Shown: positions 43,916 to 55,943 of the stretch, in pieces
How the letters are laid out: each line of letters starts with the position of its first letter
Position numbering within the stretch: position 1 is the stretch's first letter
From: Escherichia coli
GTDB lineage: Bacteria > Pseudomonadota > Gammaproteobacteria > Enterobacterales > Enterobacteriaceae
Direction: 5' to 3' (one strand)
NCBI RefSeq assembly: GCF_003334305.1
Contig: NZ_QOWS01000007.1
Length of the DNA stretch: 64,000 bases
Program-made: the position numbers and the translations under genes
The notes under the pieces: generated by a model
Told to the model about the DNA's origin: nothing
Databases searched by the model: none
What the model saw: only the letters and a program-made list of their open reading frames with translations

Positions 43916-44338
43916 ATGAACACACTACGTTATTTTGATTTTGGAGCTGCCCGCCCCGTTTTGTTATTAATTGCCCGTATCGCCGTGGTCTTAATTTTCA
44001 TTATTTTTGGTTTTCCCAAAATGATGGGCTTTGACGGTACGGTCCAATATATGGCCTCGTTGGGCGCGCCAATGCCGATGCTGGCAGCGATTATTGCGGT
44101 AGTTATGGAAGTGCCCGCCGCGATATTAATCGTGCTTGGCTTTTTCACCCGTCCGCTGGCGGTGCTGTTTATTTTCTACACGCTGGGTACGGCGGTGATT
44201 GGTCACCATTACTGGGATATGACCGGCGATGCGGTTGGGCCAAATATGATTAATTTCTGGAAGAATGTCAGTATCGCTGGCGCATTCCTGCTGCTGGCAA
44301 TTACCGGGCCGGGGGCAATTTCTCTCGATCGGCGTTAG
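43916..44338 (+). CDS. yphA: DoxX-family inner-membrane protein YphA, 140 aa
   Basis: Start at MNTLRYFDF (ATG 43916); four hydrophobic segments. Confidence 0.85.
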
Positions 44339-44342
44339 GAAA

Positions 44343-44379
44343 GATGCCGGATGCGGCGTGAACGCCTTATCCGGCATTT
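44343..44379. repeat. REP element between yphA and yphB
   Basis: gatgccggatgcggcgtgaacgccttatccggcattt. Confidence 0.65.
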
Positions 44380-44385
44380 AATAAA

Positions 44386-45258
44386 TTACAGCCACTCTAC
44401 CCGCAACGACATCTCTGAAGTTGTTGATTCCCCTGGTGCTAGCGCAATGAGATCACCCCCTTCCGGGCGATGATGATCATCCGGCGCATGGCTCATCGGT
44501 TCCAGACAGAAGAAATCAAACGCATATCCTTTATCAAACGCAGGGTCGGAAACAAAGATGAAATAACACGGTGCAGGTGGCGTCGTTTCCATGATGATGG
44601 CATAACCTTCCTGCGGCTGCTCGATGCGGGCCTGACCATTCCATCCGGCAAAACCATTGTTCACCCACTGGCGCGGCAACGGCGCGGGCTGGTTAAAATC
44701 CAGTTCCTGCGGTAGCTGCTCGCAAAACTCACCCGCCAGCCACTGCTCCCGCTCCAGCCAGTAACCGCTCGCCTGTGCCTGAATCCGCGTTTGCGGCGAC
44801 AACGGAAAATAAGGATGCCAGCCGGTACCAAATGGCAGCGTCTCTGCCCCTTGATTGGTGACAGAGAGCGTCACCGTCAGCGTATCCGCCGTTAAATGAA
44901 ACGCCTGACTTACCCGATAGTGATAGACACCGCTGCGATGTTCATACACCAGACACAAACTATCATCGCTGTGCGAGACACATTGCCACTCGCCCAGCCA
45001 GCCATCGCCGTGTAGATAGTGCGCATCCCACTCAACATTCGGTTGCAGTTGATACTCACGCCCCTGCCAGACAAAACGATTGCCGCTCACCCGGTTTGCA
45101 AATGGCACCAGCGGAAAACATGAGGCATCGGTTGCCACACCGCTTTTTTTACCAGGACGTAAGAGCGGCGTCGTATCGCGCCAGAAGCCTTCGATTACGC
45201 CGCCCTGGTCAGAAACGTCCAGCTTTAGCGACCCGTGGGATAAGGTATAGATGGTCAT
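44386..45258 (-). CDS. yphB: aldose 1-epimerase (mutarotase) family protein YphB, 290 aa
   Basis: Full-length ORF; family assignment from memory. Confidence 0.85.
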   Translation of the reverse strand: MTIYTLSHGSLKLDVSDQGGVIEGFWRDTTPLLRPGKKSGVATDASCFPLVPFANRVSGNRFVWQGREYQLQPNVEWDAHYLHGDGWLGEWQCVSHSDDSLCLVYEHRSGVYHYRVSQAFHLTADTLTVTLSVTNQGAETLPFGTGWHPYFPLSPQTRIQAQASGYWLEREQWLAGEFCEQLPQELDFNQPAPLPRQWVNNGFAGWNGQARIEQPQEGYAIIMETTPPAPCYFIFVSDPAFDKGYAFDFFCLEPMSHAPDDHHRPEGGDLIALAPGESTTSEMSLRVEWL

Positions 45259-45269
45259 CCGCTAACTCC

Positions 45270-46331
45270 TTAATCCGGGAAGTTAATCACAACTTTCCCG
45301 CATTTGCCGCTCGCCATCAGCGCATAGGCATCACCTGCCTGTTCCAGCGAGAAGCGATGGGTAATGGCGTTACGCGGCCACAGTTTCCAGTCCGTCAGAT
45401 CATGGGCGCATTTTTCCATATGGAACAGACTGGTCACCCAGGAGCCGATAATCCGCCGTTGATGGTGCATCAGATCGGCGCTGACCTCGAACTCCACTTT
45501 TCCGGTTTCTCCGATGTAAACCACCCGTCCCCAGTCAGCGGTGGATCGCAGTGCCAGCAAGCGACCTGCGGCATTACCAGAACAATCGAGCGCAACATCC
45601 GCGCCACCGTGGGTGAGTTCGGCGATAATCTGCGGCAGACCTTCGGTGGTTGCTAAATAGCCGTGATCCATCACCCCTAACTGTTTTGCCATCGCCAGAC
45701 GTTCCGGCAGCATATCAACGCCGATGATCCGTTTTGCACCGCGACCTTTCGCCAGCATCATCGCCATCATGCCGACTGGCCCCAGACCGACCACCAGCAC
45801 GTTATCACTGCCGGAAACTTCGCCGCGCAAAATCCCTTCATAGGCCGTGCCAACGCCGCAACTGATAAACGCACCATCTTCGTAGCTCAGCGCATCCGGC
45901 AGGAGGATCAGATCTTTTTCTTCCGCCAGCAGATATTCGGCATGACCGCCGTCACGCTGCCAGCCGTAAGCCGCTTTTCCTTTGCCAGTACAAGAGATAG
46001 GAAAGCCGCGGCGGCAGTTCGGGCAAAAACCACAGCCAGAAATGTGATACACCAGCACGCGATCACCCTCTTTAAAATGGCGACAGCCTTGCCCCATCGC
46101 CACAATCTGCCCGCACGGTTCATGACCGTTGATAAATCCCTGGTATAACGGTTTATCGGGTGCCGCCGCCGTGGCACGGTGTTGATGATAGATATAGTGG
46201 ACATCGCTTCCGCAAATCCCGGAGGATTTCATTTTGATCAGTACCTGGTTAATCCCCGGCGTCGGCACCGCAACTTCCCGCAGATCGACGGTTGAATTTC
46301 CTGGTAAATAAGCTGCCAGCATCGTTTTCAT
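45270..46331 (-). CDS. yphC: Zn-dependent alcohol/polyol dehydrogenase family protein YphC, 353 aa
   Basis: Start at MKTMLAAYL; zinc-ADH signature GHEPCGQIVAMGQG; structural-zinc Cys cluster CGFCPNCRRGFPISC; Rossmann VVGLGPVG. Confidence 0.85.
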   Translation of the reverse strand: MKTMLAAYLPGNSTVDLREVAVPTPGINQVLIKMKSSGICGSDVHYIYHQHRATAAAPDKPLYQGFINGHEPCGQIVAMGQGCRHFKEGDRVLVYHISGCGFCPNCRRGFPISCTGKGKAAYGWQRDGGHAEYLLAEEKDLILLPDALSYEDGAFISCGVGTAYEGILRGEVSGSDNVLVVGLGPVGMMAMMLAKGRGAKRIIGVDMLPERLAMAKQLGVMDHGYLATTEGLPQIIAELTHGGADVALDCSGNAAGRLLALRSTADWGRVVYIGETGKVEFEVSADLMHHQRRIIGSWVTSLFHMEKCAHDLTDWKLWPRNAITHRFSLEQAGDAYALMASGKCGKVVINFPD

Positions 46332-46396
46332 AAATCCCTCATTAACAATACGATTAATTTTCATCCCTGCCGCACCCGCGCCAGGGGCGTTAAGGT

Positions 46397-47395
46397 TTAG
46401 CGTTTCGCTTTACTGCTTCGCTGGGTCAGCAAGATATTCGCCAGCACCGCCACCACGATGATGACGCCGCGTACCACCTGCTGGAAAAAGGAGTTAATAC
46501 CGAGCAGCACCAGACCGTTACCGATTAGCGTAATCACCAGCACACCAAGCAATGTACCGAACAGGGAACCGCGACCGCCGGAAAGTGCCGTACCGCCGAC
46601 CACGACCGCGGCGATGACGTCAAACTCCAGACCGTTTGCGGCACCTGCGTTACCAGAACCGAGGCGCGCCGCCAACAAAATGCCGGTCACCGCCGCTAAT
46701 AATCCCGAAAGGGTAAAGATAAGAATGCGCACCCGACGAACGTTGATGCCGCACAACTGCGCCGCCGTAGCATTACCGCCAACGGCAAAAACCGAGCGCC
46801 CGAAGGCGGTTTTGCGGCTGATGAACACAAACAGCGCAAACAACACAATCATGATCAGCGCGGATACCGGCACACCGAGAAATTGTCCGCCCAGCCAGTC
46901 CAGCACCTCGTTTTCGTCAATCGGCACTGGCAGTGCGTTCGTCATAAACAGCCCCATTCCGCGCAGGGCGCTCCACAGCCCCAGTGTGGCAACGAAACTT
47001 GGTACGTTAAACACGCCGCGCAGCACCCCGGCCAGCGTTCCCATCAGCGCGCCTAACAGCAACACCAGCAGACACGCCACCGCCAGCGGAACTTCAAATT
47101 GCAGCAAAAATGCCAGGCACACCGAGACAAAAGCCACCATCGGCCCAACGCTGACATCAATTTCACCGGAGATAATAATCAGCGTCATCGCCCAGGCGGC
47201 AATCCCAATGGTGGCGGCATCGCGCAGCACGTTCATCTGGTTATTCAATGAGATAAAGCCAGGCGCGTTCAGGGAGAAGACCAGATAAAGAATGGCGATT
47301 ACCACCAGCAAACCGATCTCATTAATATGGCGACTGACAAATTGTTTGAGCGAGACGCTCTTGCCCTGCGGCAATGATAATGACGAAGCAGACAT
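46397..47395 (-). CDS. yphD: sugar ABC transporter permease YphD, 332 aa
   Basis: Multi-TM hydrophobic protein, ribose/xylose-type permease pattern. Confidence 0.88.
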   Translation of the reverse strand: MSASSLSLPQGKSVSLKQFVSRHINEIGLLVVIAILYLVFSLNAPGFISLNNQMNVLRDAATIGIAAWAMTLIIISGEIDVSVGPMVAFVSVCLAFLLQFEVPLAVACLLVLLLGALMGTLAGVLRGVFNVPSFVATLGLWSALRGMGLFMTNALPVPIDENEVLDWLGGQFLGVPVSALIMIVLFALFVFISRKTAFGRSVFAVGGNATAAQLCGINVRRVRILIFTLSGLLAAVTGILLAARLGSGNAGAANGLEFDVIAAVVVGGTALSGGRGSLFGTLLGVLVITLIGNGLVLLGINSFFQQVVRGVIIVVAVLANILLTQRSSKAKR

Positions 47396-47419
47396 CTTCA
47401 GGTTCCTCGGTAAAATTCA

Positions 47420-48931
47420 TCAGTGCACAGACAGAATGGCGGACATCAGCTCATCCACATTGACCGGCGAGTGAAACTCCTGCGAGAACGTACCGTGCTG
47501 TAACAACAGGATGCGGTCGCACACCAGCGGCAACTCCTCCACTTCACTGGAGATAAACACCACGCTTTTTCCTTCGGCAGCCAGCTCACGGACAATACGG
47601 TAAATCTGCTGTTTGGCTTCGATATCGACGCCGCGCGTTGGCTCGTCGAGCAACAAAATCTGGCTGGCGGCATAGACCCAACGACCGATCACCACTTTTT
47701 GCTGATTGCCGCCAGAAAGCGTGCCGATGGGCGTTTCGCTACTGGCGGCCTTGACCGTCATCCGCTGCATCACCTCTTCGGTCAGGCGGCGGATGGTGGA
47801 CCATTGCAGTACGCCGTTGGCGCTGATTTTTTGCCGATTGGTCAGCACTGTATTTTCGTCAACGCCCAACCAGGGAATGATCCCCGCTTCTTTGCGGTTT
47901 TCTGGCGTATAGCCAATGCCGCGTTTCAGCATGTCGCCGTAATCGGGGCGCGTGATTTTCTCGCCGTTGATAACAATTTCGCCCTGTTCATACTCCTCCA
48001 GCCCAACAATCGCCTTCAGCAATTCACTGCGCCCTGCCCCCAGCAGGCCAGCAATGCCAAGCACTTCGCCGCGACGTAACGTAAAGCTGATATCCTCCAG
48101 CTTGGGCTTATGGCGTAATGCACGGACTTCCAGCACGGCCTGATCCACAATTTCCTGAGGGGCTACCGGCGCAATATCAACGTGATCACGCCCTAGCATT
48201 AGCGACACAATATGATGCGTGGAGGTGTTTTCGAGCATCACATCGCCCGCCACCTGACCATCGCGCATAACGGTGGCACAGGAGGCAATGCGGCGGATTT
48301 CTTCCATCCGGTGGCTGACATAAATCACCGCCACGCCCAGTGCCGACATCTTTTTCACCGCACTGATCACCAGTTCAACTTCTGCACTGGCAAGCGAGCT
48401 GGTGGGTTCATCAAGAATGACCACGCGCGGCTCGCCCTTCATCACCCGTGCAATTTCCACCAGTTGCTTTTGCGCCGGGCTTAGCGTTGAAACAAGTTGT
48501 TCAGGACTAACGTCAACGCCCAGCGCCTGTAAGCAACGTTGGGCATCCTGCGCCATTTGCAGGTAATCAATCATGCCGTTGCGGCGAGGCCATTGACCAA
48601 GGCAGAGGTTTTCTGCCACCGTCAGCCCTTCCACCAGACTTAATTCCTGATAAACCGCACGAACCCCCAGTTCAGCGGCACGGCGAGTCAACGTAGCTTC
48701 GTCACCTTCCAGTCGCGTCTCGCCAATCCAGATATCACCGCTATCCGGGCGTTCGCTGCCGGTAAGCATTCGAATGAGAGTCGATTTGCCCGCGCCGTTT
48801 TTACCTAACAGCGCACGAACTTCGCCTTTATTGAGCGTGAAGTTAACGTTATCCAGCGCAACGACGCCGGGGTAACGCTTATTTCCTGCCACCACTTTTG
48901 CTACCGGGACTGCCTCTGTTGCCGTGAACAT
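47420..48931 (-). CDS. yphE: sugar ABC transporter ATP-binding protein YphE (duplicated ATPase), 503 aa
   Basis: Two Walker A motifs GKNGAGKST and GLLGAGRSE; two signature motifs LSPAQKQ and LSGGNQQK. Confidence 0.9.
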   Translation of the reverse strand: MFTATEAVPVAKVVAGNKRYPGVVALDNVNFTLNKGEVRALLGKNGAGKSTLIRMLTGSERPDSGDIWIGETRLEGDEATLTRRAAELGVRAVYQELSLVEGLTVAENLCLGQWPRRNGMIDYLQMAQDAQRCLQALGVDVSPEQLVSTLSPAQKQLVEIARVMKGEPRVVILDEPTSSLASAEVELVISAVKKMSALGVAVIYVSHRMEEIRRIASCATVMRDGQVAGDVMLENTSTHHIVSLMLGRDHVDIAPVAPQEIVDQAVLEVRALRHKPKLEDISFTLRRGEVLGIAGLLGAGRSELLKAIVGLEEYEQGEIVINGEKITRPDYGDMLKRGIGYTPENRKEAGIIPWLGVDENTVLTNRQKISANGVLQWSTIRRLTEEVMQRMTVKAASSETPIGTLSGGNQQKVVIGRWVYAASQILLLDEPTRGVDIEAKQQIYRIVRELAAEGKSVVFISSEVEELPLVCDRILLLQHGTFSQEFHSPVNVDELMSAILSVH

Positions 48932-48953
48932 AGGGACCTCTGCGAATCAGCGA

Positions 48954-49937
48954 TTAGGGCAGACCATCAACGTGCGTTGCCAGCCACTGTTTACCATCTT
49001 CCGTTTTGGTATAGAGATCGATTGGCACCTGAATCACTTTTTCACCGTCGGCTTGTTTATTGATAACCTTCAATGTTTGCGCGAAAACAGCATTGCCCAT
49101 TTTCTTACCGGAAATATCCACTACCGCTTTCAGCACCTGATTGTTTTCCAGCTCCTGAGCAATTTCGGTTGTCATATCCGAACCGAAAACAGCAATTTTT
49201 CCGGCCTGATTTTGATTACGTACCGCTTTTACCGCGCCGAGTGTCGCACCGCCCGACTCCCCCATAATGGCGTTGAGATCCGGCGTGGAGATAATCAGTT
49301 TTTCACCAACGGAAATCGCTTTATCTAAAACAGTCCCTTCCTGATTAGCGACAATTTGCGCGCCGGGAACGCGGGATTTTAATACTTCTTCAAATCCTTT
49401 ACGTCGCTGCACACAAACTTCAAAGGCTTCGCAATTGATGACGGCAATTTTCGGCTGGTCAATTTTATTGGCAATAAAATAATCGGCGGCAGCGTTACCC
49501 AGTTTTTTACCAAATTCCAGTGGATCGCCGACCAGATACGCCGAGACATATTTATCGACACCCTTTTGATTAATACAGGTGTTGTAGCAAATCACCGGAA
49601 TACCCGCTTCACTGGCGCGACGAACGGTACGGCTACTGCCATTTTCAGACACTGCCGATAAAATAATGGCATCGACATTACGCGCCACGAGGGTATCAAC
49701 AAAGGTACTTTCTTTCGAAATATCACCCTGGGCGTTAGTTTCAATTAACTGTACCTGTACTGAAGAATCTTTTGCCGCATCCTGAACGCCCTGACGCACT
49801 CCAGCGTAATATCCCTGGGTATCAAGGTATATTGCACCAATGGTCATCTCTTTATCCGCAGCCCTGGCAAATAGTGCGCTACCTAATAGCGTACCCATTA
49901 ATAATAGATTACGGGTTGTTCTCATTTTTTTAGGCAT
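48954..49937 (-). CDS. yphF: periplasmic sugar-binding protein YphF, 327 aa
   Basis: Signal peptide MPKKMRTTRNLLLMGTLLGSALFARA; type I periplasmic binding protein-like. Confidence 0.88.
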   Translation of the reverse strand: MPKKMRTTRNLLLMGTLLGSALFARAADKEMTIGAIYLDTQGYYAGVRQGVQDAAKDSSVQVQLIETNAQGDISKESTFVDTLVARNVDAIILSAVSENGSSRTVRRASEAGIPVICYNTCINQKGVDKYVSAYLVGDPLEFGKKLGNAAADYFIANKIDQPKIAVINCEAFEVCVQRRKGFEEVLKSRVPGAQIVANQEGTVLDKAISVGEKLIISTPDLNAIMGESGGATLGAVKAVRNQNQAGKIAVFGSDMTTEIAQELENNQVLKAVVDISGKKMGNAVFAQTLKVINKQADGEKVIQVPIDLYTKTEDGKQWLATHVDGLP

Positions 49938-50033
49938 AGTGCCTCCTGTAGGGTTTTTATTAACAACGGCTTATTCTAATTATTTTGTGATGAGCGGCAG
50001 CGCGTGCCGCTCAAATATTACAGTTAATAGGGT

Positions 50034-53000
50034 TTAGTGAACGTAGTTAAAAATAAAAGGCATCACGGTGGTGAATAATGCCGCTTTCGGCCAGGCCGGA
50101 TTAATCGCCGTCAATTCAGCGCGAGCAGATTCATATTGCGCAACCTCCCCGAGTCCCGCGGACGCCAGCATCGCCACCATCAGGCATTTTTCTTTATGCT
50201 GCTGTTGTAAATCGCCATACAGCGACAACAGGTCAGGTTGTGAAACAGCAAAGAAATCCGCCTCAATACTGGTTTTCGCCATCTCTTGCGCCCACTGTTT
50301 CATTTCACTAAACAGTTGCTGTGCGGTTTGCTGTTCACCCAGCAGTCGCAGCGCCATTCCTTGCCAGAAGAGATAATCAACCGGCTGATCGTTGTAATAA
50401 CTGTGGATGTTAATGGTGCGATCGCCGGTCGCCGCCAGACGTAAACAACGCATCGCTTCAGTTTCATCGCCCTGCGCGTTGGCGCATATCGCCTGCCAGA
50501 ACCAGATGTCGTTATCAGTTTGCCCCGGTAAACGGCCTTCGCTTAAATTCTCCGGATAATGCAGCGCGGCATGAAGCAGTTCGCTGGCCTGCTGCGGCTC
50601 TCTGGCATCAAGATGCTGCCAGGCGCGTAATAACTGGTTGAGGATAAACTGACTGGTGACCTTCCCTTCCCCGCCTTCCCACGGGTGGAATTTGCGCGTG
50701 GCGAGAATGTCCGCCGCTTTGTCTGCCTGACCCGTGAGATGCCACAAATTGAGCAACTCTGCTGTCATGTCGTCGCGTTTCAGCGCAATTTCCAGATTAT
50801 TTTCCAGACGCGCCAGTCGTTTCTCCGGTGTGGCTCCGCTTAACTTATCAAGCAAATCCCGTTCGAAAAGCAGACGTGCATCCTGCGGCGCAAGCTGATA
50901 AGCATTATCAAGATAACGCGCGGCCAGCTCATAATCGTGTTGCTTATTCCACGCATGGATCGCTAACCCGCGCCAGCCGTCGGCAAACTCCGGCGACATC
51001 TCTACGCAACGTTGCCATAAGGTAATGGCTTTGTTGTAGCTACGCTTGTTGTAGTAGAAGCAGGCCAGTAAATGACGGGCAAACCAGCACTCTTCAATAC
51101 TCTCCAGCGCCGCCACTTCTTCCAGCGTATTCGGGAAACGGACAAACTGCGGGAAGACATCAATGGCTTTTGCGACCAGTTCGCCGCGTTCGGCTTTCGG
51201 CAATAAACTCGCCTGCAGGTAAAGCGGCAGCGTGCGCTGGCAGTCCAGTGCGTTCAGCATCTCTGCCGCCAGGGTGGGCATTCCCCAGTTAATCAGTTGC
51301 CCGGCGGTCATCAGAGCGTTAACGTCGCGTCCCTGACACAGACCGCGCCACTGCGCGAGAGCTGATTCGCTACGACCATCGAACCAGTTCAGCCACCACA
51401 GAGTGGCGTTCAGCGGATAATCGCGCAGCAGTTTCTCGCGCTGCACACGCGCGTTGTCCTGACGACCACTTAACACCAGCAGCAGATTATGCAGGCAAAG
51501 CACTTCCTGATTGGTTGGGCAGGCGCGAAGACTTTGTTGGCAAAAATCCAGACCAGCGTCGAAGTTACCATTACGCGCCGCCAGTCGTGCCAGGCCATAA
51601 TAGCCACCGGCTTTGCTGTTGCCGCTCCAGACCGCACGCCAGAAATCCTCTTCGGCTTGTTGATATTGTCCCTGACGTTCGTAAGCACTGGCGCGAATCA
51701 AACTGGCCTGTCCGCACTGCGGATTTTTGTTCAGCGCATGTGCGCGTTTCAGCGCCTGAGTGGCATACGCCACCGCTTGCGGGAAATCGGCGCGGTTATA
51801 TTCCAGCATCGCCAGCGCCAGGTTACAGCGGTAATCCAGCGGATCCAGCACCACGCCGCGCAGGTAGTAATCGAACGGTGAACGGCTGGCGTGATGATAT
51901 TGCTCCAGATGCTGACCGATAAACCAGGCTTCATCTGTACTGGTAATGTCTTGTGCTGCCAGTGGCGCTTTGGCGACGTCCGGCAACGGCAACTCTTGCG
52001 GCTGATGTTCCTGATAACTCAGTACAATATTGCCGTCGGCATCGGAGAGCTCAATGGTCAGCCTTTCAGGATTGATACCGTGCAACACGCCCTGGATGGC
52101 GGTCGCAGGCATCAGTGCCACGGCATCATCAAGTAACGCGTTGCATTTGCCGATTTCGCGGATCGCCAGGCGGTATCCGTTCAACGGAGAGATGGCATAC
52201 AGCCCCCACTCAATCCCCCGCTTACTACGCTGGAGTTTTATCACCGCATCGCGGGAGGCATTTTGCACCATGCCCAAAGAATGATAAGGCAGGAAATACT
52301 GCTCAAAACGCATCTCTTCGTAAGCATCAAGCCAGGTAAAATCGGGCTGGTTATCGGCAAAAATACCGGTCATCAGTTCGATATACGGGCCGTTATTGTC
52401 GGTCAGACTCTTATCCCACGCCTGGCCAAATTCACTGTGTCCCCAACTCCACTGTTTTTTACCTGGCGCGATATGGTGGTTGGCAACGTGCAGCAAACCG
52501 CCATCTTCATCGTGACACCACGCGCCGACAAAATCGTACTGCGATTTTTCGGCCATATATGAGGTTGGAACAGGCACATTTTTATAGCGAGAAATGTCCA
52601 CTCCGGCGGAGTAGTCCACTTTGTAGTAAGTGCCGGTGGCGATGGGGAAAGCGGAGACGGCCCGTTTGCCGTGATCAAACACCGCAGTCACATCCGGTGG
52701 GAAAACGCTCTGATGCCCTTCCCCCCCTTTCACTGCCGGGTTGGCCCACCACAAGAAATGACGCGGCGTGGCGTTACCGTTATAGACGCGGCTGGCGATT
52801 TCCAGCGCCGCCCGTTCAGGACGCAGTGTGAAACCTGTCATCACCTGTAAACCGTGCATCGGCTCCGTTTCGCCGACCCACACCGTCTGTGCGCCGTCTT
52901 CATGGGCTTCGAGGGTGAAATCAACGGGCATAAAGGTGGTCGGGCGATGGTGTTGCGGCCAGTTAAACTCAATCCCGCCAGAGATCCACGGTCCCAGCAG

Positions 53001-53315
53001 CCCCACCAGCGCAGGTTTAATGACTTCATTGTGATAGACAAAATCGCGTTGTTTCACTTTATCCCATGCGCGATGCACACGACCGCCCAGTTCCGGCAGG
53101 ATCATCACTTTGATGTAGTCGTTTTCCAGCCACACCGCCTGCCAGGATTTCAGGGTTTTCTGCTCGCTCAGCGTATCGGTCACGCCGTAGGGATAAACCG
53201 CGCCGGACGATCCCTGATAAACGCGATTTTCCAAGAACATGGGATGTATATCCTGCGGCCCGGTTTCATAGGTCGGGATCTCAACGCGCTCTTGCCACAC
53301 TTTTACTGGAGTCAT
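50034..53315 (-). CDS. yphG: large uncharacterised protein YphG, 1093 aa (N-terminal domain of unknown function plus C-terminal helical repeats)
   Basis: Start at MTPVKVWQERVE (track ORF is a 31-codon extension); no signal peptide seen; C-terminal half rich in Ala/Leu/Trp/Tyr helical repeats. Confidence 0.8.
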   Translation of the reverse strand: MTPVKVWQERVEIPTYETGPQDIHPMFLENRVYQGSSGAVYPYGVTDTLSEQKTLKSWQAVWLENDYIKVMILPELGGRVHRAWDKVKQRDFVYHNEVIKPALVGLLGPWISGGIEFNWPQHHRPTTFMPVDFTLEAHEDGAQTVWVGETEPMHGLQVMTGFTLRPERAALEIASRVYNGNATPRHFLWWANPAVKGGEGHQSVFPPDVTAVFDHGKRAVSAFPIATGTYYKVDYSAGVDISRYKNVPVPTSYMAEKSQYDFVGAWCHDEDGGLLHVANHHIAPGKKQWSWGHSEFGQAWDKSLTDNNGPYIELMTGIFADNQPDFTWLDAYEEMRFEQYFLPYHSLGMVQNASRDAVIKLQRSKRGIEWGLYAISPLNGYRLAIREIGKCNALLDDAVALMPATAIQGVLHGINPERLTIELSDADGNIVLSYQEHQPQELPLPDVAKAPLAAQDITSTDEAWFIGQHLEQYHHASRSPFDYYLRGVVLDPLDYRCNLALAMLEYNRADFPQAVAYATQALKRAHALNKNPQCGQASLIRASAYERQGQYQQAEEDFWRAVWSGNSKAGGYYGLARLAARNGNFDAGLDFCQQSLRACPTNQEVLCLHNLLLVLSGRQDNARVQREKLLRDYPLNATLWWLNWFDGRSESALAQWRGLCQGRDVNALMTAGQLINWGMPTLAAEMLNALDCQRTLPLYLQASLLPKAERGELVAKAIDVFPQFVRFPNTLEEVAALESIEECWFARHLLACFYYNKRSYNKAITLWQRCVEMSPEFADGWRGLAIHAWNKQHDYELAARYLDNAYQLAPQDARLLFERDLLDKLSGATPEKRLARLENNLEIALKRDDMTAELLNLWHLTGQADKAADILATRKFHPWEGGEGKVTSQFILNQLLRAWQHLDAREPQQASELLHAALHYPENLSEGRLPGQTDNDIWFWQAICANAQGDETEAMRCLRLAATGDRTINIHSYYNDQPVDYLFWQGMALRLLGEQQTAQQLFSEMKQWAQEMAKTSIEADFFAVSQPDLLSLYGDLQQQHKEKCLMVAMLASAGLGEVAQYESARAELTAINPAWPKAALFTTVMPFIFNYVH

Positions 53316-53432
53316 GGTGCCCTCAATATTAACAAGACATACTGAATTAAAAGATTTGTGGCAGTGTATTGAACAATCTGGCAATGTTTTCGCGGAATAA
53401 TCACGCAATTAACTAAACAAGGTTTAGTGAAG

Positions 53433-54626
53433 ATGAGAGCCTGCATTAACAATCAACAGATTCGCCACCATAACAAATGCGTGATTCTGGAACTGCTGTA
53501 CCGGCAAAAGCGCGCCAATAAATCAACGCTGGCCCGGCTGGCGCAAATTTCGATTCCGGCAGTCAGTAATATTTTGCAGGAACTGGAAAGCGAAAAACGG
53601 GTGGTGAATATCGACGATGAAAGCCAGACGCGCGGGCATAGTAGCGGTACATGGCTGATTGCGCCGGAAGGTGACTGGACGCTGTGCCTGAACGTGACGC
53701 CCACCAGTATTGAGTGTCAGGTTGCTAATGCTTGTTTAAGTCCGAAAGGCGAGTTTGAGTATTTACAGATTGATGCACCGACGCCGCAGGCGCTGCTGTC
53801 CGAAATCGAAAAATGCTGGCATCGCCACCGTAAATTGTGGCCGGACCGCACCATCAATCTGGCGCTGGCAATCCACGGTCAGGTTGATCCGGTGACCGGC
53901 GTGTCGCAAACCATGCCGCAAGCGCCGTGGACAACGCCGGTGGAGGTGAAATATCTGCTGGAAGAGAAGCTCGGCATTCGGGTGATGGTCGATAATGACT
54001 GCGTGATGCTGGCGCTGGCGGAGAAATGGCAAAATAATTCGCAGGAACGGGATTTCTGCGTGATCAACGTTGATTACGGCATTGGCTCGTCGTTCGTGAT
54101 TAACGAGCAAATTTATCGCGGCAGTTTGTATGGTAGCGGACAGATTGGTCACACCATCGTTAATCCGGATGGCGTCGTCTGCGACTGTGGACGTTACGGC
54201 TGCCTGGAAACCGTCGCCTCGTTAAGTGCTTTAAAAAAACAGGCGCGGGTATGGCTAAAATCACAACCGGTTAATACTCAGCTTGATCCTGAAAAACTGA
54301 CAACCGCGCAGTTAATCGCTGCCTGGCAGAGTGGAGAACCGTGGATCACCAGCTGGGTTGACCGCAGTGCCAATGCCATTGGTTTGAGTCTGTATAACTT
54401 CCTCAACATCCTCAATATTAATCAGATTTGGTTGTACGGTCGCAGTTGTGCCTTTGGTGAGAACTGGCTTAATACTATTATTCGCCAGACAGGATTTAAC
54501 CCGTTCGACCGCGACGAAGGACCGAGCGTGAAAGCGACGCAAATTGGCTTCGGGCAATTAAGCCGCGCACAACAGGTGCTGGGAATTGGCTATTTGTATG
54601 TTGAGGCGCAGTTACGACAGATTTGA
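53433..54626 (+). CDS. yphH: ROK-family transcriptional regulator YphH (NagC/Mlc-like), 397 aa
   Basis: Start taken at ATG 53433 (MRACINN; track ORF starts at GTG 53427); N-terminal HTH; ROK zinc motif CDCGRYGCLE. Confidence 0.85.
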   Translation: MRACINNQQIRHHNKCVILELLYRQKRANKSTLARLAQISIPAVSNILQELESEKRVVNIDDESQTRGHSSGTWLIAPEGDWTLCLNVTPTSIECQVANACLSPKGEFEYLQIDAPTPQALLSEIEKCWHRHRKLWPDRTINLALAIHGQVDPVTGVSQTMPQAPWTTPVEVKYLLEEKLGIRVMVDNDCVMLALAEKWQNNSQERDFCVINVDYGIGSSFVINEQIYRGSLYGSGQIGHTIVNPDGVVCDCGRYGCLETVASLSALKKQARVWLKSQPVNTQLDPEKLTTAQLIAAWQSGEPWITSWVDRSANAIGLSLYNFLNILNINQIWLYGRSCAFGENWLNTIIRQTGFNPFDRDEGPSVKATQIGFGQLSRAQQVLGIGYLYVEAQLRQI

Positions 54627-54644
54627 TGGCGCGATAACGTAGAA

Positions 54645-54669
54645 AGGCTTCCCGAAGGAAGCCTTTTTT
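54645..54669. terminator. bidirectional terminator between convergent yphH and glyA
   Basis: aggcttcccgaaggaagcct hairpin followed by ttttt. Confidence 0.6.
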
Positions 54670-54689
54670 CAACAGATTAACCGTTTCGC

Positions 54690-55943
54690 TTATGCGTAAA
54701 CCGGGTAACGTGCGCAGATGTCGAGAACTTTACCTTTGATGCGCTCGATAACGGCTTCATCATTGATGCTGTCCAGCACGTCACACATCCAGCCAGCCAG
54801 TTCTTTCGCTTCTGCTTCTTTGAAGCCGCGACGCGTAATTGCCGGAGTACCCACGCGAATACCGGAGGTCACAAACGGGCTCTTCGGATCGTTCGGTACG
54901 CTGTTTTTGTTGACGGTGATGTTAGCACGGCCCAGAGCGGCGTCTGCTTCTTTACCGGTCAGGTTTTTATCGACCAGATCAACCAGGAACAGATGGTTAT
55001 CAGTACCGCCGGAAACCACTTTGTAGCCGCGTTCCAGGAACACTTCTACCATCGCTTTAGCGTTTTTAGCGACCTGCTGCTGGTAAGTTTTGAACTCAGG
55101 CTCCATCGCTTCTTTCAGAGCAACCGCTTTACCGGCGATTACGTGCATCAACGGACCGCCCTGACCACCAGGGAAAACGGCAGAGTTCAGTTTTTTGTAC
55201 AGCTCTTCGCTACCACCTTTCGCCAGGATCAGGCCGCCGCGCGGACCCGCCAGGGTTTTGTGAGTGGTGGTAGTAACAACGTGAGCATGAGGAACCGGGT
55301 TCGGGTAGACGCCAGCAGCAACCAGGCCCGCAACGTGCGCCATATCAACGAACAGGTAAGCACCGATGCTGTCAGCGATTTCACGCATTTTCGCCCAGTC
55401 CACCACGCCGGAATATGCAGAGAAACCACCGATAATCATTTTCGGCTTGTGTTCTTTGGCTTGTTTTTCCAGATCGGCGTAGTCGATATGACCGGTAGCA
55501 TCGATACCGTAAGGAACGATGTTGTACAGTTTACCGGAGAAGTTAACCGGAGAACCGTGAGTCAGGTGACCGCCATGCGCCAGGTTCATACCCAGAACGG
55601 TATCACCTGGTTCCAGCAGCGCGGTGTAGACCGCAAAGTTAGCCTGGGAGCCGGAGTGCGGCTGGACGTTAGCGTAGTCAGCGCCGAACAGTTCTTTCGC
55701 ACGATCGATCGCCAGTTGTTCAACGATATCAACATACTCGCAACCGCCGTAGTAGCGTTTGCCCGGATAACCTTCAGCATATTTGTTGGTCAGCTGAGAA
55801 CCCTGCGCCTGCATTACGCGCGGGCTGGTGTAGTTTTCGGAGGCGATCAGTTCGATGTGCTCTTCCTGACGTACTTTTTCCTGCTCCATAGCCTGCCACA
55901 GTTCGGCATCATAATCGGCAATGTTCATTTCACGCTTTAACAT
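54690..55943 (-). CDS. glyA: serine hydroxymethyltransferase, 417 aa
   Basis: Start at [19 protein letters not shown]-lysine region [14 protein letters not shown]. Confidence 0.97.

What the first reader, a model, noticed from the sequence alone, without database searches (positions are those of the whole stretch)
50034..53315. YphG: 1093-aa cytoplasmic-looking protein of unknown function embedded in a sugar transport locus
YphG has no signal peptide or TM segment that I can see. Its N-terminal half is rich in Trp, Gly and His, with acidic residues that could fit a carbohydrate-active fold. Its C-terminal half is Ala/Leu/Tyr/Trp-rich helical repeats resembling TPR units, for example YNKAITLWQRCVEMSPEFADGWRGLAIHAW. 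It is transcribed divergently from yphH across a 117-bp spacer, which would allow co-regulation. Such a large protein of unknown function next to a sugar ABC system is unusual.
Basis: inference. Interest (0 to 1): 0.45.

Follow-up and report, generated by a model that had tools for sequence, protein, structure and literature searches.

The report
YphG: mutarotase-derived sugar enzyme with TPR
YphG is a real, well-conserved 1093-residue E. coli protein of untested function; its front half is an altered copy of the sugar-anomerising enzyme mutarotase and its back half is a long helical-repeat arm, and across three bacterial phyla it sits beside sugar importers, so it is most likely an undescribed sugar-processing enzyme.

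Summary
The minus-strand ORF 50034-53315 encodes the 1093-aa yphG, a core E. coli gene with no signal peptide or membrane segment. It lies divergent from yphH across a 117-bp spacer.

A bridging family links DUF5107 to YphB-type mutarotases by profile comparison. The catalytic Glu is kept (E313, invariant). The catalytic His is replaced by an invariant Asn (N192). So YphG is not a canonical mutarotase.

The link to the yphDEF ABC system is lineage-specific. Among the 80 closest loci, 53 have an MFS sugar porter within three genes, about 7 have the ABC system, and 26 have a mutarotase-type gene of three different subfamilies. In 43 of 64 non-gammaproteobacterial loci there are GH2, GH35, GH36 or GH97 galactosidase genes. 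More distant homologs carry signal peptides and sit inside polysaccharide utilisation loci.

Best reading: an uncharacterised carbohydrate-active enzyme. It most likely cleaves a small galactose-type saccharide. The substrate and the chemistry are inferred, not shown.

The parts
50034..53315 (-). yphG coding sequence (1093 aa plus stop)
   Evidence: ORF list, translation and RefSeq annotation. Pfam DUF5107 at aa 39-323, E 8.9e-55, plus TPR_16 matches.
52281..53315 (-). N-terminal beta-supersandwich, aa 1-345 (DUF5107; mutarotase-type fold). It carries nearly all the invariant polar residues.
52377..52379 (-). Codon of E313, invariant. It aligns with the catalytic-base Glu of mutarotases (CLEP motif, YphB E253).
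   Evidence: Chained profile alignments: DUF5107 to c13 at 97.3% probability, and c13 to YphB at 95.8% probability. Invariance.
52740..52742 (-). Codon of N192, invariant. It occupies the position of the catalytic-acid His of mutarotases (YphB H148, HPYF motif).
52944..52952 (-). H122-H123-R124, near-invariant. H123-R124 aligns with the N-R (ANRV) motif of YphB. That this Arg binds the sugar in mutarotases is from memory.
   Evidence: The GGIEFNWPQHHRP motif is shared with 5cd6.
52008..52268 (-). Second, poorly conserved beta-sandwich, aa 350-436.
   Evidence: Secondary structure of the model shows eight strands at 357-435. The consensus is mostly x in this stretch.
50037..51938 (-). TPR superhelix, aa 460-1093, 34 helices.
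50664..50690 (-). Conserved loop FHPWEGGEG, aa 876-884, between two TPR helices (E880 kept in 97% of homologs). Candidate contact with the N-domain pocket.
   Evidence: Column conservation. The loop position comes from the model's secondary structure. The proposed contact is inference only.
53316..53432 (.). 117-bp divergent spacer between yphG and yphH.
   Evidence: The consensus scan found no sigma-70-like site in it.
53409..53431 (.). Palindrome TTAACTAAAC-aag-GTTTAGTGAA next to the yphH start. Candidate operator of the ROK repressor YphH.
   Evidence: The core ACTAAAC-N3-GTTTAGT is found, with up to 3 substitutions, at the same place in 17 of 18 ROK|yphG spacers of gammaproteobacteria, against 1.7% of shuffles.
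53433..54626 (+). yphH, a ROK-family regulator of the NagC/Mlc type, uncharacterised.
   Evidence: Described as uncharacterised in PMC4288165 and PMC9308461.
46397..49937 (-). yphF (binding protein), yphE (fused ATPase) and yphD (single permease): an ABC importer with the one-permease, fused-ATPase make-up of the ribose/arabinose/xylose importers it best matches.
   Evidence: NCBIfam sub-threshold matches to the AraG/XylG/RbsA, RbsC/AraH and AlsB/MglB/RbsB families.
44386..46364 (-). yphC (Zn-dependent polyol-type dehydrogenase) and yphB (aldose 1-epimerase family).

Best explanation
YphG is the enzyme of a small sugar-utilisation module made of a regulator, YphG, a sugar importer and a mutarotase.

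Its N-terminal supersandwich descends from aldose 1-epimerase. It keeps the catalytic Glu (E313) and an aligned Arg (R124). It has swapped the catalytic His for Asn (N192) and gained its own invariant set: H122/H123, K100, K286/K287, D306, Y311, N322, Q323, D325.

I infer that it binds a small galactose-type saccharide brought in by YphDEF (by an MFS porter in most relatives) and cleaves it by hydrolysis or elimination. This would release a reducing sugar in one anomeric form, which YphB equilibrates. In the E. coli-type operon YphC may oxidise a polyol part.

The TPR arm is an integral part of the protein. It probably closes over or completes the pocket through conserved loops (FHPWEGGEG) or drives oligomerisation. 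YphH probably represses the divergent genes through the conserved palindrome.

Shown: folds, homology to mutarotases, residue conservation and gene neighbourhoods. Inferred: catalysis, bond cleavage, substrate class, the role of the TPR arm, and repression by YphH.
For: Fold and descent:
- The chained profile links have E-values of 1.8e-11 and 7e-9.

Active-site-like conservation:
- Fifteen columns are invariant and about 50 are near-invariant in the N-domain across 90 sequences from several phyla.
- N-domain identity is 33-70%, against 18-49% for the C-half.

Partners are swapped but kept:
- The importer is CUT2 ABC in Escherichia, Enterobacter and Budvicia. It is an MFS sugar porter in Aeromonas, Serratia, Mixta and Bacteroidota. 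Multi-component ABC genes (binding protein plus two ~290-aa membrane-protein ORFs) occur in Paenibacillus.
- The mutarotase partner comes from three subfamilies: YphB-type, GalM-type and c13. This argues that a free reducing sugar in a defined anomer is a product or a substrate.

Galactoside theme:
- GH2 resembling a beta-1,4-galactosidase, GH35, GH36 melibiase, GH97 alpha-galactosidase and GalM occur nearby.
- 43 of 64 non-gammaproteobacterial loci have at least one of the four galactosidase-type clusters.

Secreted relatives:
- 19 of 89 sampled homologs have signal peptides or lipoboxes and keep the same invariant residues.
- One lies between a GH16 gene and a sulfatase gene in a SusC/SusD locus. 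That is where glycan-cleaving enzymes usually sit.
Against: - There is no biochemical or genetic evidence of any kind. No paper on function was found.
- Neither half matches any known glycosidase or lyase family by sequence.
- Both conserved importer types resemble monosaccharide carriers (XylE-like porter; Rbs/Ara/Xyl-like ABC). That fits a monosaccharide substrate better than a disaccharide, although such carriers are known to take small glycosides (from memory: the Mgl system takes methyl- and glyceryl-galactosides).
- The residue mapping rests on chained profile alignments, not on a structural superposition.
- The galactosidase enrichment was not compared with a genomic background.
- The secreted relatives are only 34-38% identical and may do something different.
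Confidence: 0.45

Rival explanations
1. YphG is a non-cleaving sugar-converting enzyme: an atypical mutarotase, a pyranose/furanose interconverting enzyme, or an epimerase or isomerase. It would act on an imported monosaccharide of the galactose or arabinose type and turn it into a common sugar.
For: - The closest fold relatives are true mutarotases, and the catalytic Glu is retained.
- Both conserved importer kinds are monosaccharide-type.
- The minimal module in Aeromonas, Serratia and Mixta has no kinase or aldolase. The product must therefore already be a common sugar.
Against: - The catalytic His is replaced by an invariant Asn, and the second His has no counterpart.
- A genuine mutarotase is usually encoded alongside, so simple mutarotation would be redundant.
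- About a fifth of sampled homologs are secreted and sit in polysaccharide loci. A monosaccharide isomerase has little reason to be there.
- A 630-residue TPR arm is unexplained for such chemistry.
Confidence: 0.3
2. YphG is a non-catalytic sugar-binding scaffold or sensor. The supersandwich would bind the sugar, and the TPR arm would recruit YphH, the transporter or other proteins to control the operon.
For: - TPR arrays are classical protein-protein interaction modules. The top matches include MalT domain III and Rap regulators.
- The gene is always next to a regulator gene (ROK or AraC type).
Against: - The regulator family changes between phyla (ROK versus AraC) while YphG stays 53-57% identical in its N-domain. 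A dedicated partner would be expected to co-vary.
- The density of invariant acidic, basic and amide residues is typical of catalysis.
- Secreted homologs cannot contact cytoplasmic regulators.
- No NTPase or DNA-binding domain is present.
Confidence: 0.12
3. The E. coli copy is a cryptic or decaying remnant with no present function.
For: - No growth phenotype or substrate is known, and the regulator is uncharacterised.
- Truncated forms are common among database clusters: 900 aa with 1109 members, and 692 aa with 1402 members.
- The gene is split into 841- and 244-aa ORFs in one E. coli assembly (L007).
Against: - A full-length copy is present in 5420 of 5426 complete genomes at 90-100% identity.
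- The reading frame is intact in the window, and every invariant residue of the family is kept.
- Many of the truncated clusters come from short contigs.
Confidence: 0.05

Closest known systems
PDB 5cd6 (BDI_1685, Parabacteroides distasonis; 'TPR-domain containing protein', structural genomics, no function assigned)
Aldose 1-epimerases / galactose mutarotase (GalM; YphB = PDB 3nre; YeaD; hexose-6-phosphate mutarotase)
   Different: There is no Pfam Aldose_epim match. The catalytic His is replaced by an invariant Asn, and the second His is absent. YphG has extra invariant residues of its own, an added beta-sandwich and about 630 residues of TPR. Ordinary mutarotases are 290-350 aa.
Supersandwich-containing glycan-cleaving enzymes (GH186 OpgG/OpgD, GH174 fucanase, GH38, GH2/GH36/GH97 N- or C-domains; PL8/15/17/35 lyases that pair a helical domain with a beta-sandwich)
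   Different: Structural similarity is weaker than to mutarotases. There is no sequence match. The helical part of YphG is a TPR solenoid, not an (alpha/alpha) toroid, and it lies C-terminal to the sandwich.
lac/gal-type minimal glycoside operons (permease, large cytoplasmic glycosidase, mutarotase, repressor)
   Same: The gene logic is the same: an importer, one very large cytoplasmic protein, a mutarotase-family gene and a divergent repressor.
   Different: The large protein is unrelated to LacZ or any known glycosidase family. The substrate and the activity are unknown.

Membership tests
Pfam DUF5107 (PF17128) plus TPR architecture | Significant match to the DUF5107 profile, followed by TPR repeats in one protein of about 1100 aa | tested here: met
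   DUF5107 at aa 39-323, E 8.9e-55; TPR_16 at 499-560 and 754-813. The same architecture is kept in homologs down to 34% identity.
Aldose 1-epimerase (mutarotase) superfamily | Galactose-mutarotase-type beta-supersandwich fold | tested here: met
Aldose 1-epimerase (mutarotase) superfamily | Sequence-profile membership (Pfam Aldose_epim PF01263) | tested here: not met
   No PF01263 match. Direct hhalign against YphB-type and GalM-type alignments gives no signal. The link is seen only through the c13 bridge family.
Aldose 1-epimerase (mutarotase) superfamily | Catalytic-base Glu (CLEP/EPQ motif; YphB E253) | tested here: met
   YphG E313 aligns with c13 E296 and with YphB E253, and it is invariant in 90 sequences.
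Aldose 1-epimerase (mutarotase) superfamily | Catalytic-acid His (HxYFN motif; YphB H148) | tested here: not met
   The aligned residue is N192, invariant across the family. This rests on a profile alignment, not on a superposition.
Aldose 1-epimerase (mutarotase) superfamily | Second active-site His (LHGG/LHGDGW motif; YphB H83) | tested here: inconclusive
   The segment carrying it in c13 and YphB is an insertion relative to YphG. H122/H123 might substitute spatially, which needs a superposition to settle.
Aldose 1-epimerase (mutarotase) superfamily | Mutarotase activity | not testable with these tools
   Needs polarimetry or NMR with purified protein.
Tetratricopeptide repeat proteins | Helix-turn-helix repeats forming a superhelix; matches to TPR profiles | tested here: met
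Known glycoside hydrolase or polysaccharide lyase families | Sequence match to a catalytic domain of a described family | tested here: not met
   No glycosidase or lyase family in Pfam or NCBIfam matches YphG. The only close solved relative is the unannotated 5cd6.
Supersandwich plus (alpha/alpha)6-barrel enzymes (GH15, GH65, GH94 type) | The helical half folds as a closed (alpha/alpha)6 barrel | tested here: not met
   The C-half matches open TPR solenoids only; no barrel enzymes are in the top 60.
MalT/STAND-type sugar-sensing regulators with TPR-like sensor | NTPase domain and DNA-binding domain | tested here: not met

The most novel reading that the evidence does not exclude
YphG and its relatives form a new family of glycan-cleaving enzymes whose catalytic domain is a re-tooled mutarotase supersandwich (Glu kept, His changed to Asn) working together with a TPR arm. 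If so, E. coli carries an unrecognised catabolic operon (yphH, yphGFEDCB) for a small galactose-type glycoside, possibly a glycosyl-polyol.
Probability: 0.3. Interest if true: 0.7.

Novelty: new variant of a known kind. Interest (0 to 1): 0.5.

Why it matters
yphG is a core E. coli gene, present in 5423 of 5426 complete genomes. Its family is very large (3936 clusters at 50% identity) and spans Proteobacteria, Bacteroidota, Firmicutes, Actinobacteria, Planctomycetes and green algae. It has a solved structure, yet no function is assigned in the literature or databases I could search.

This work gives a concrete starting point:
- A mutarotase-derived pocket with named residues to mutate: E313, N192, H122/H123/R124, K286/K287.
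- A short list of candidate substrates: galactose-type small saccharides.
- A candidate operator for the uncharacterised third ROK repressor of E. coli.

If catalysis is confirmed, it would add a new catalytic use of the mutarotase fold. It would also assign a gene that recurs in gut and marine polysaccharide utilisation loci.

Tried and rejected
- Direct profile-profile comparison of DUF5107 with YphB-type and GalM-type alignments gave no signal. The link appeared only through the 332-aa c13 neighbour family.
- I tested whether the helical half is an (alpha/alpha)6 catalytic barrel, as in GH15, GH65 and GH94. This was rejected: only TPR solenoids matched.
- The idea that the ABC transporter is the conserved partner was rejected. 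It is restricted to Escherichia, Enterobacter and Budvicia.
- Literature searches for YphG, DUF5107, 5CD6, PF17128, the yph gene names and b2549 found no functional study. One search was poorly designed and returned nothing.
- NCBIfam gave no specific family for YphG, YphB, YphC, YphF or YphH.
- The AlphaFold-database search returned only 'DUF5107' or 'TPR' names.
- Rfam found nothing in 44000-55000.
- The consensus promoter scan found no sigma-70-like site in the 117-bp spacer.
- I could not obtain model coordinates. No superposition on a GalM-sugar complex was possible, and I could not test whether the TPR loops reach the pocket.
Full report
**1. Observation**

The window holds a minus-strand ORF from 53315 (ATG, with GAGGG five bases upstream) to 50034. 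It encodes 1093 aa. Mechanically, a TTG at 53408 extends the ORF to 1124 aa. Two things favour the ATG. RefSeq annotates the 1093-aa form as 'yphG, DUF5107 domain-containing protein' in a 100% identical E. coli chromosome. And the first Met is near-invariant among 89 homologs.

The gene is found in 5423 of 5426 complete E. coli genomes, always on the chromosome.
- yphF, yphE, yphD, yphC and yphB lie downstream on the same strand, with gaps of 96, 22, 24, 32 and 11 bp.
- yphH (ROK family) is divergent, across a 117-bp spacer.

There is no hydrophobic segment and no signal peptide. Trp and His are about twofold enriched in the N-half, but Gly is not. The C-half is rich in Ala and Leu.

**2. Anatomy**

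Pfam finds DUF5107 at aa 39-323 (E 8.9e-55) and TPR_16 matches at 499-560 and 754-813.

I modelled the two halves with AlphaFold2 on a 90-sequence alignment. The N-half had pLDDT 95.6 and the C-half 95.1.
- The N-half is all-beta: a large sandwich (aa 1-345) followed by a smaller eight-strand sandwich (aa 350-436).
- The C-half is 34 helices.

**3. Relation to mutarotases**

Direct profile-profile comparison with YphB-type or GalM-type alignments fails. A bridge exists, however. A 310-330-aa protein (cluster c13) is encoded next to the YphG homolog in Paenibacillus and Ruminiclostridium.
- c13 matches DUF5107 with 97.3% probability (E 1.8e-11).
- c13 matches YphB-type epimerases with 95.8% probability (E 7e-9).

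Chaining the two alignments gives the following correspondences:

| YphG | c13 | YphB | Role |
|---|---|---|---|
| E313 | E296 | E253 | CLEP Glu (catalytic base in GalM, from memory) |
| N192 | H179 | H148 | HPYF His (catalytic acid in GalM, from memory) |
| H123-R124 | N101-E102 | N55-R56 | N-R (ANRV) motif |

The LHGDGW His of YphB falls in a segment that YphG lacks. E313 and N192 are invariant in all 90 sequences. So the domain is homologous to mutarotases, but it is not a canonical one. This rests on profile alignments. I could not superpose structures.

**4. Conservation**

The family is very large. A search with aa 1-490 found 3936 clusters at 50% identity with E<=1e-3. The roughly 1100-aa architecture persists down to 34% identity.

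- The N-half is 33-70% identical to homologs. The C-half is only 18-49% identical.
- Invariant or near-invariant polar residues crowd the N-domain: E64, N65, D85, K86, K100, E116, N118, H122, H123, R124, N179, N192, H215, N246, K286, K287, D306, Y311, E313, N322, Q323, D325 and E333.
- In the TPR half, most conserved positions are structural. A few polar ones stand out: R782, E818, R847-D848-D849, and the inter-helix loop F876-HPW-E880-G-G-E883.

This pattern looks like an enzyme whose helical arm contributes a few functional loops. That last point is inference.

**5. Gene neighbourhoods**

A scan of one genome per species found more than 595 relatives. The 80 closest have 53-97% N-domain identity. 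They come from Enterobacterales, Aeromonas, Photobacterium, many Bacteroidota, Paenibacillus, Cohnella and Ruminiclostridium.

I called ORFs in these loci, clustered them, and named the frequent clusters with NCBIfam and Pfam. The counts below are out of 80 loci.

| Neighbour | Count |
|---|---|
| XylE-like MFS sugar porter, within three genes | 53 |
| XylE-like MFS sugar porter, adjacent on the same strand | 41 |
| yphDEF-type ABC genes, nearby | about 7 |
| Any importer, nearby | 61 |
| Mutarotase-type gene, nearby (YphB-type, GalM-type or c13) | 26 |
| AraC-type regulator, within three genes | 41 |
| ROK regulator (gammaproteobacteria only) | 13 |

Individual look-ups show the minimal module ROK | YphG | MFS | Aldose_epim in Aeromonas, Serratia and Mixta. 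Budvicia has both the ABC system and an MFS porter.

Outside gammaproteobacteria, 43 of 64 loci also carry at least one galactosidase-family gene. These are GH2 resembling exo-beta-1,4-galactosidase, GH35, GH36 melibiase or GH97 alpha-galactosidase. GalM, GH95 and sulfatases also occur in some loci. I did not compare this with a genomic background.

In Paenibacillus the homolog sits beside ABC-importer genes (a binding protein and two ~290-aa membrane-protein ORFs, not named by any profile), a GH36 gene without a signal peptide, and c13.

**6. Secreted relatives**

Of the 89 aligned homologs, 19 carry clear signal peptides or lipoboxes. All 19 are among the more distant ones, at 34-38% identity. 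They keep the invariant residues, since invariance was computed over all 90 sequences.
- One lies in a SusC/SusD locus between a GH16 gene and a sulfatase gene, with beta-helix proteins and a second sulfatase nearby.
- Others sit beside an SDR and an Aldose_epim gene, or beside esterase genes.

This weighs against a cytoplasmic regulatory role for the family. It favours a glycan-processing enzyme.

**7. Regulation**

A palindrome, TTAACTAAAC-aag-GTTTAGTGAA, lies at 53409-53431, right before the yphH start. Its core, ACTAAAC-N3-GTTTAGT, recurs at the same place in 17 of 18 ROK|YphG spacers of gammaproteobacteria, allowing up to three substitutions. Only 1.7% of shuffled spacers show it. It is a candidate YphH operator.

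YphH is described as the third, uncharacterised ROK repressor of E. coli (PMC4288165) and was still listed as of unknown function in 2022 (PMC9308461). No promoter-like site was picked up in the spacer by the simple scan. Rfam finds nothing in the region.

**8. Interpretation**

- That YphG is a carbohydrate-active enzyme acting on what the neighbouring importer brings in seems likely to me, at about 0.75.
- Within that, I favour cleavage of a small galactose-type saccharide, releasing a reducing sugar that the partner mutarotase equilibrates (0.45). The reasons are the lac/gal-like gene logic, the repeated replacement of both the importer and the mutarotase partner, the galactosidase company, and the secreted relatives inside polysaccharide loci.
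- The main rival is a non-cleaving conversion of a monosaccharide (0.3). Its support is the monosaccharide-type importers and the closeness to true mutarotases.
- A sensor or scaffold role (0.12) and a cryptic remnant (0.05) are less likely.
- The idea that YphC handles a polyol aglycone, so that the substrate is a glycosyl-polyol, is speculation.

**9. Comparison and novelty**

The gene and its Pfam family are already annotated, and a family member has been solved (5cd6). In that sense the object itself is not new. No function is recorded in the papers, family libraries, PDB names or UniProt names I could search.

Relative to known systems, it is a new variant of the mutarotase superfamily. 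It has a changed catalytic set, an added sandwich and a long TPR arm. It is embedded in sugar-utilisation modules across phyla.

Noticed in passing
window 49991-50013: A perfect 9-bp GC-rich hairpin (TGAGCGGCA-cgcgc-TGCCGCTCA) lies in the 96-bp gap between the yphG stop and the yphF start. It is not followed by a T-run. The folding z-score of the gap is -2.15. It may be a partial terminator or a transcript-stabilising element inside the operon.
   Followed up: partly
window 53409-53431: A palindrome abuts the yphH start codon. Its core is conserved in 17 of 18 gammaproteobacterial ROK|yphG spacers, against 1.7% of shuffles. It is a candidate operator for the uncharacterised ROK repressor YphH.
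   Followed up: partly
window 53316-53408: An in-frame TTG at 53408 would extend yphG to 1124 aa and leave only 18-24 bp before yphH. As I recall, older K-12 annotation used an 1124-aa form. Homolog alignment and the Shine-Dalgarno sequence support the 1093-aa ATG start.
   Followed up: yes
window 49000-50500: G+C drops to 45-48% over yphF and the 3' end of yphG, against 53-57% in the rest of the operon. Together with the lineage-restricted ABC cassette, this hints that the transporter genes were swapped in.
   Followed up: no
L027:7853-8851, L030:13303-14301, L053:7350-8288, L055:13318-14292, L073:7804-8727: A stand-alone protein of about 310-330 aa (cluster c13) lies next to YphG homologs in Paenibacillus and Ruminiclostridium. 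It bridges DUF5107 and YphB-type aldose 1-epimerases in profile comparisons and keeps both the His and the Glu. It has no NCBIfam match and only a weak partial Pfam DUF5107 hit.
   Followed up: partly
L087:10001-13303; also L088 and L089: Signal-peptide-bearing DUF5107-TPR homologs sit inside polysaccharide utilisation loci. One locus has SusC/SusD, GH16, two sulfatases and beta-helix proteins, which looks like a sulfated-galactan locus.
   Followed up: partly
L007:2286-5600 (approx.): In one E. coli assembly (SCPM-O-B-8794) yphG is split into 841-aa and 244-aa ORFs. Database clusters of 900 and 692 aa, with more than 1000 members each, also exist. These may be pseudogenes in some lineages or assembly fragments. 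AlphaFold DB lists an 843-aa Shigella flexneri form.
   Followed up: no
fold search: DUF5107 proteins with 45-47% identity to the E. coli N-domain occur in the green algae Chlorella variabilis and C. vulgaris. They also occur in Bifidobacterium, Listeria grayi, Planctomycetes and Chloroflexi.
   Followed up: no
L011 and L019, upstream of the ROK gene: In Enterobacter sp. ENT03 and Citrobacter sp. FP75, a GH36 melibiase gene (731-732 aa) and an unnamed ORF of about 460-480 aa lie immediately beyond the ROK regulator. This links the enterobacterial module to alpha-galactosides.
   Followed up: partly
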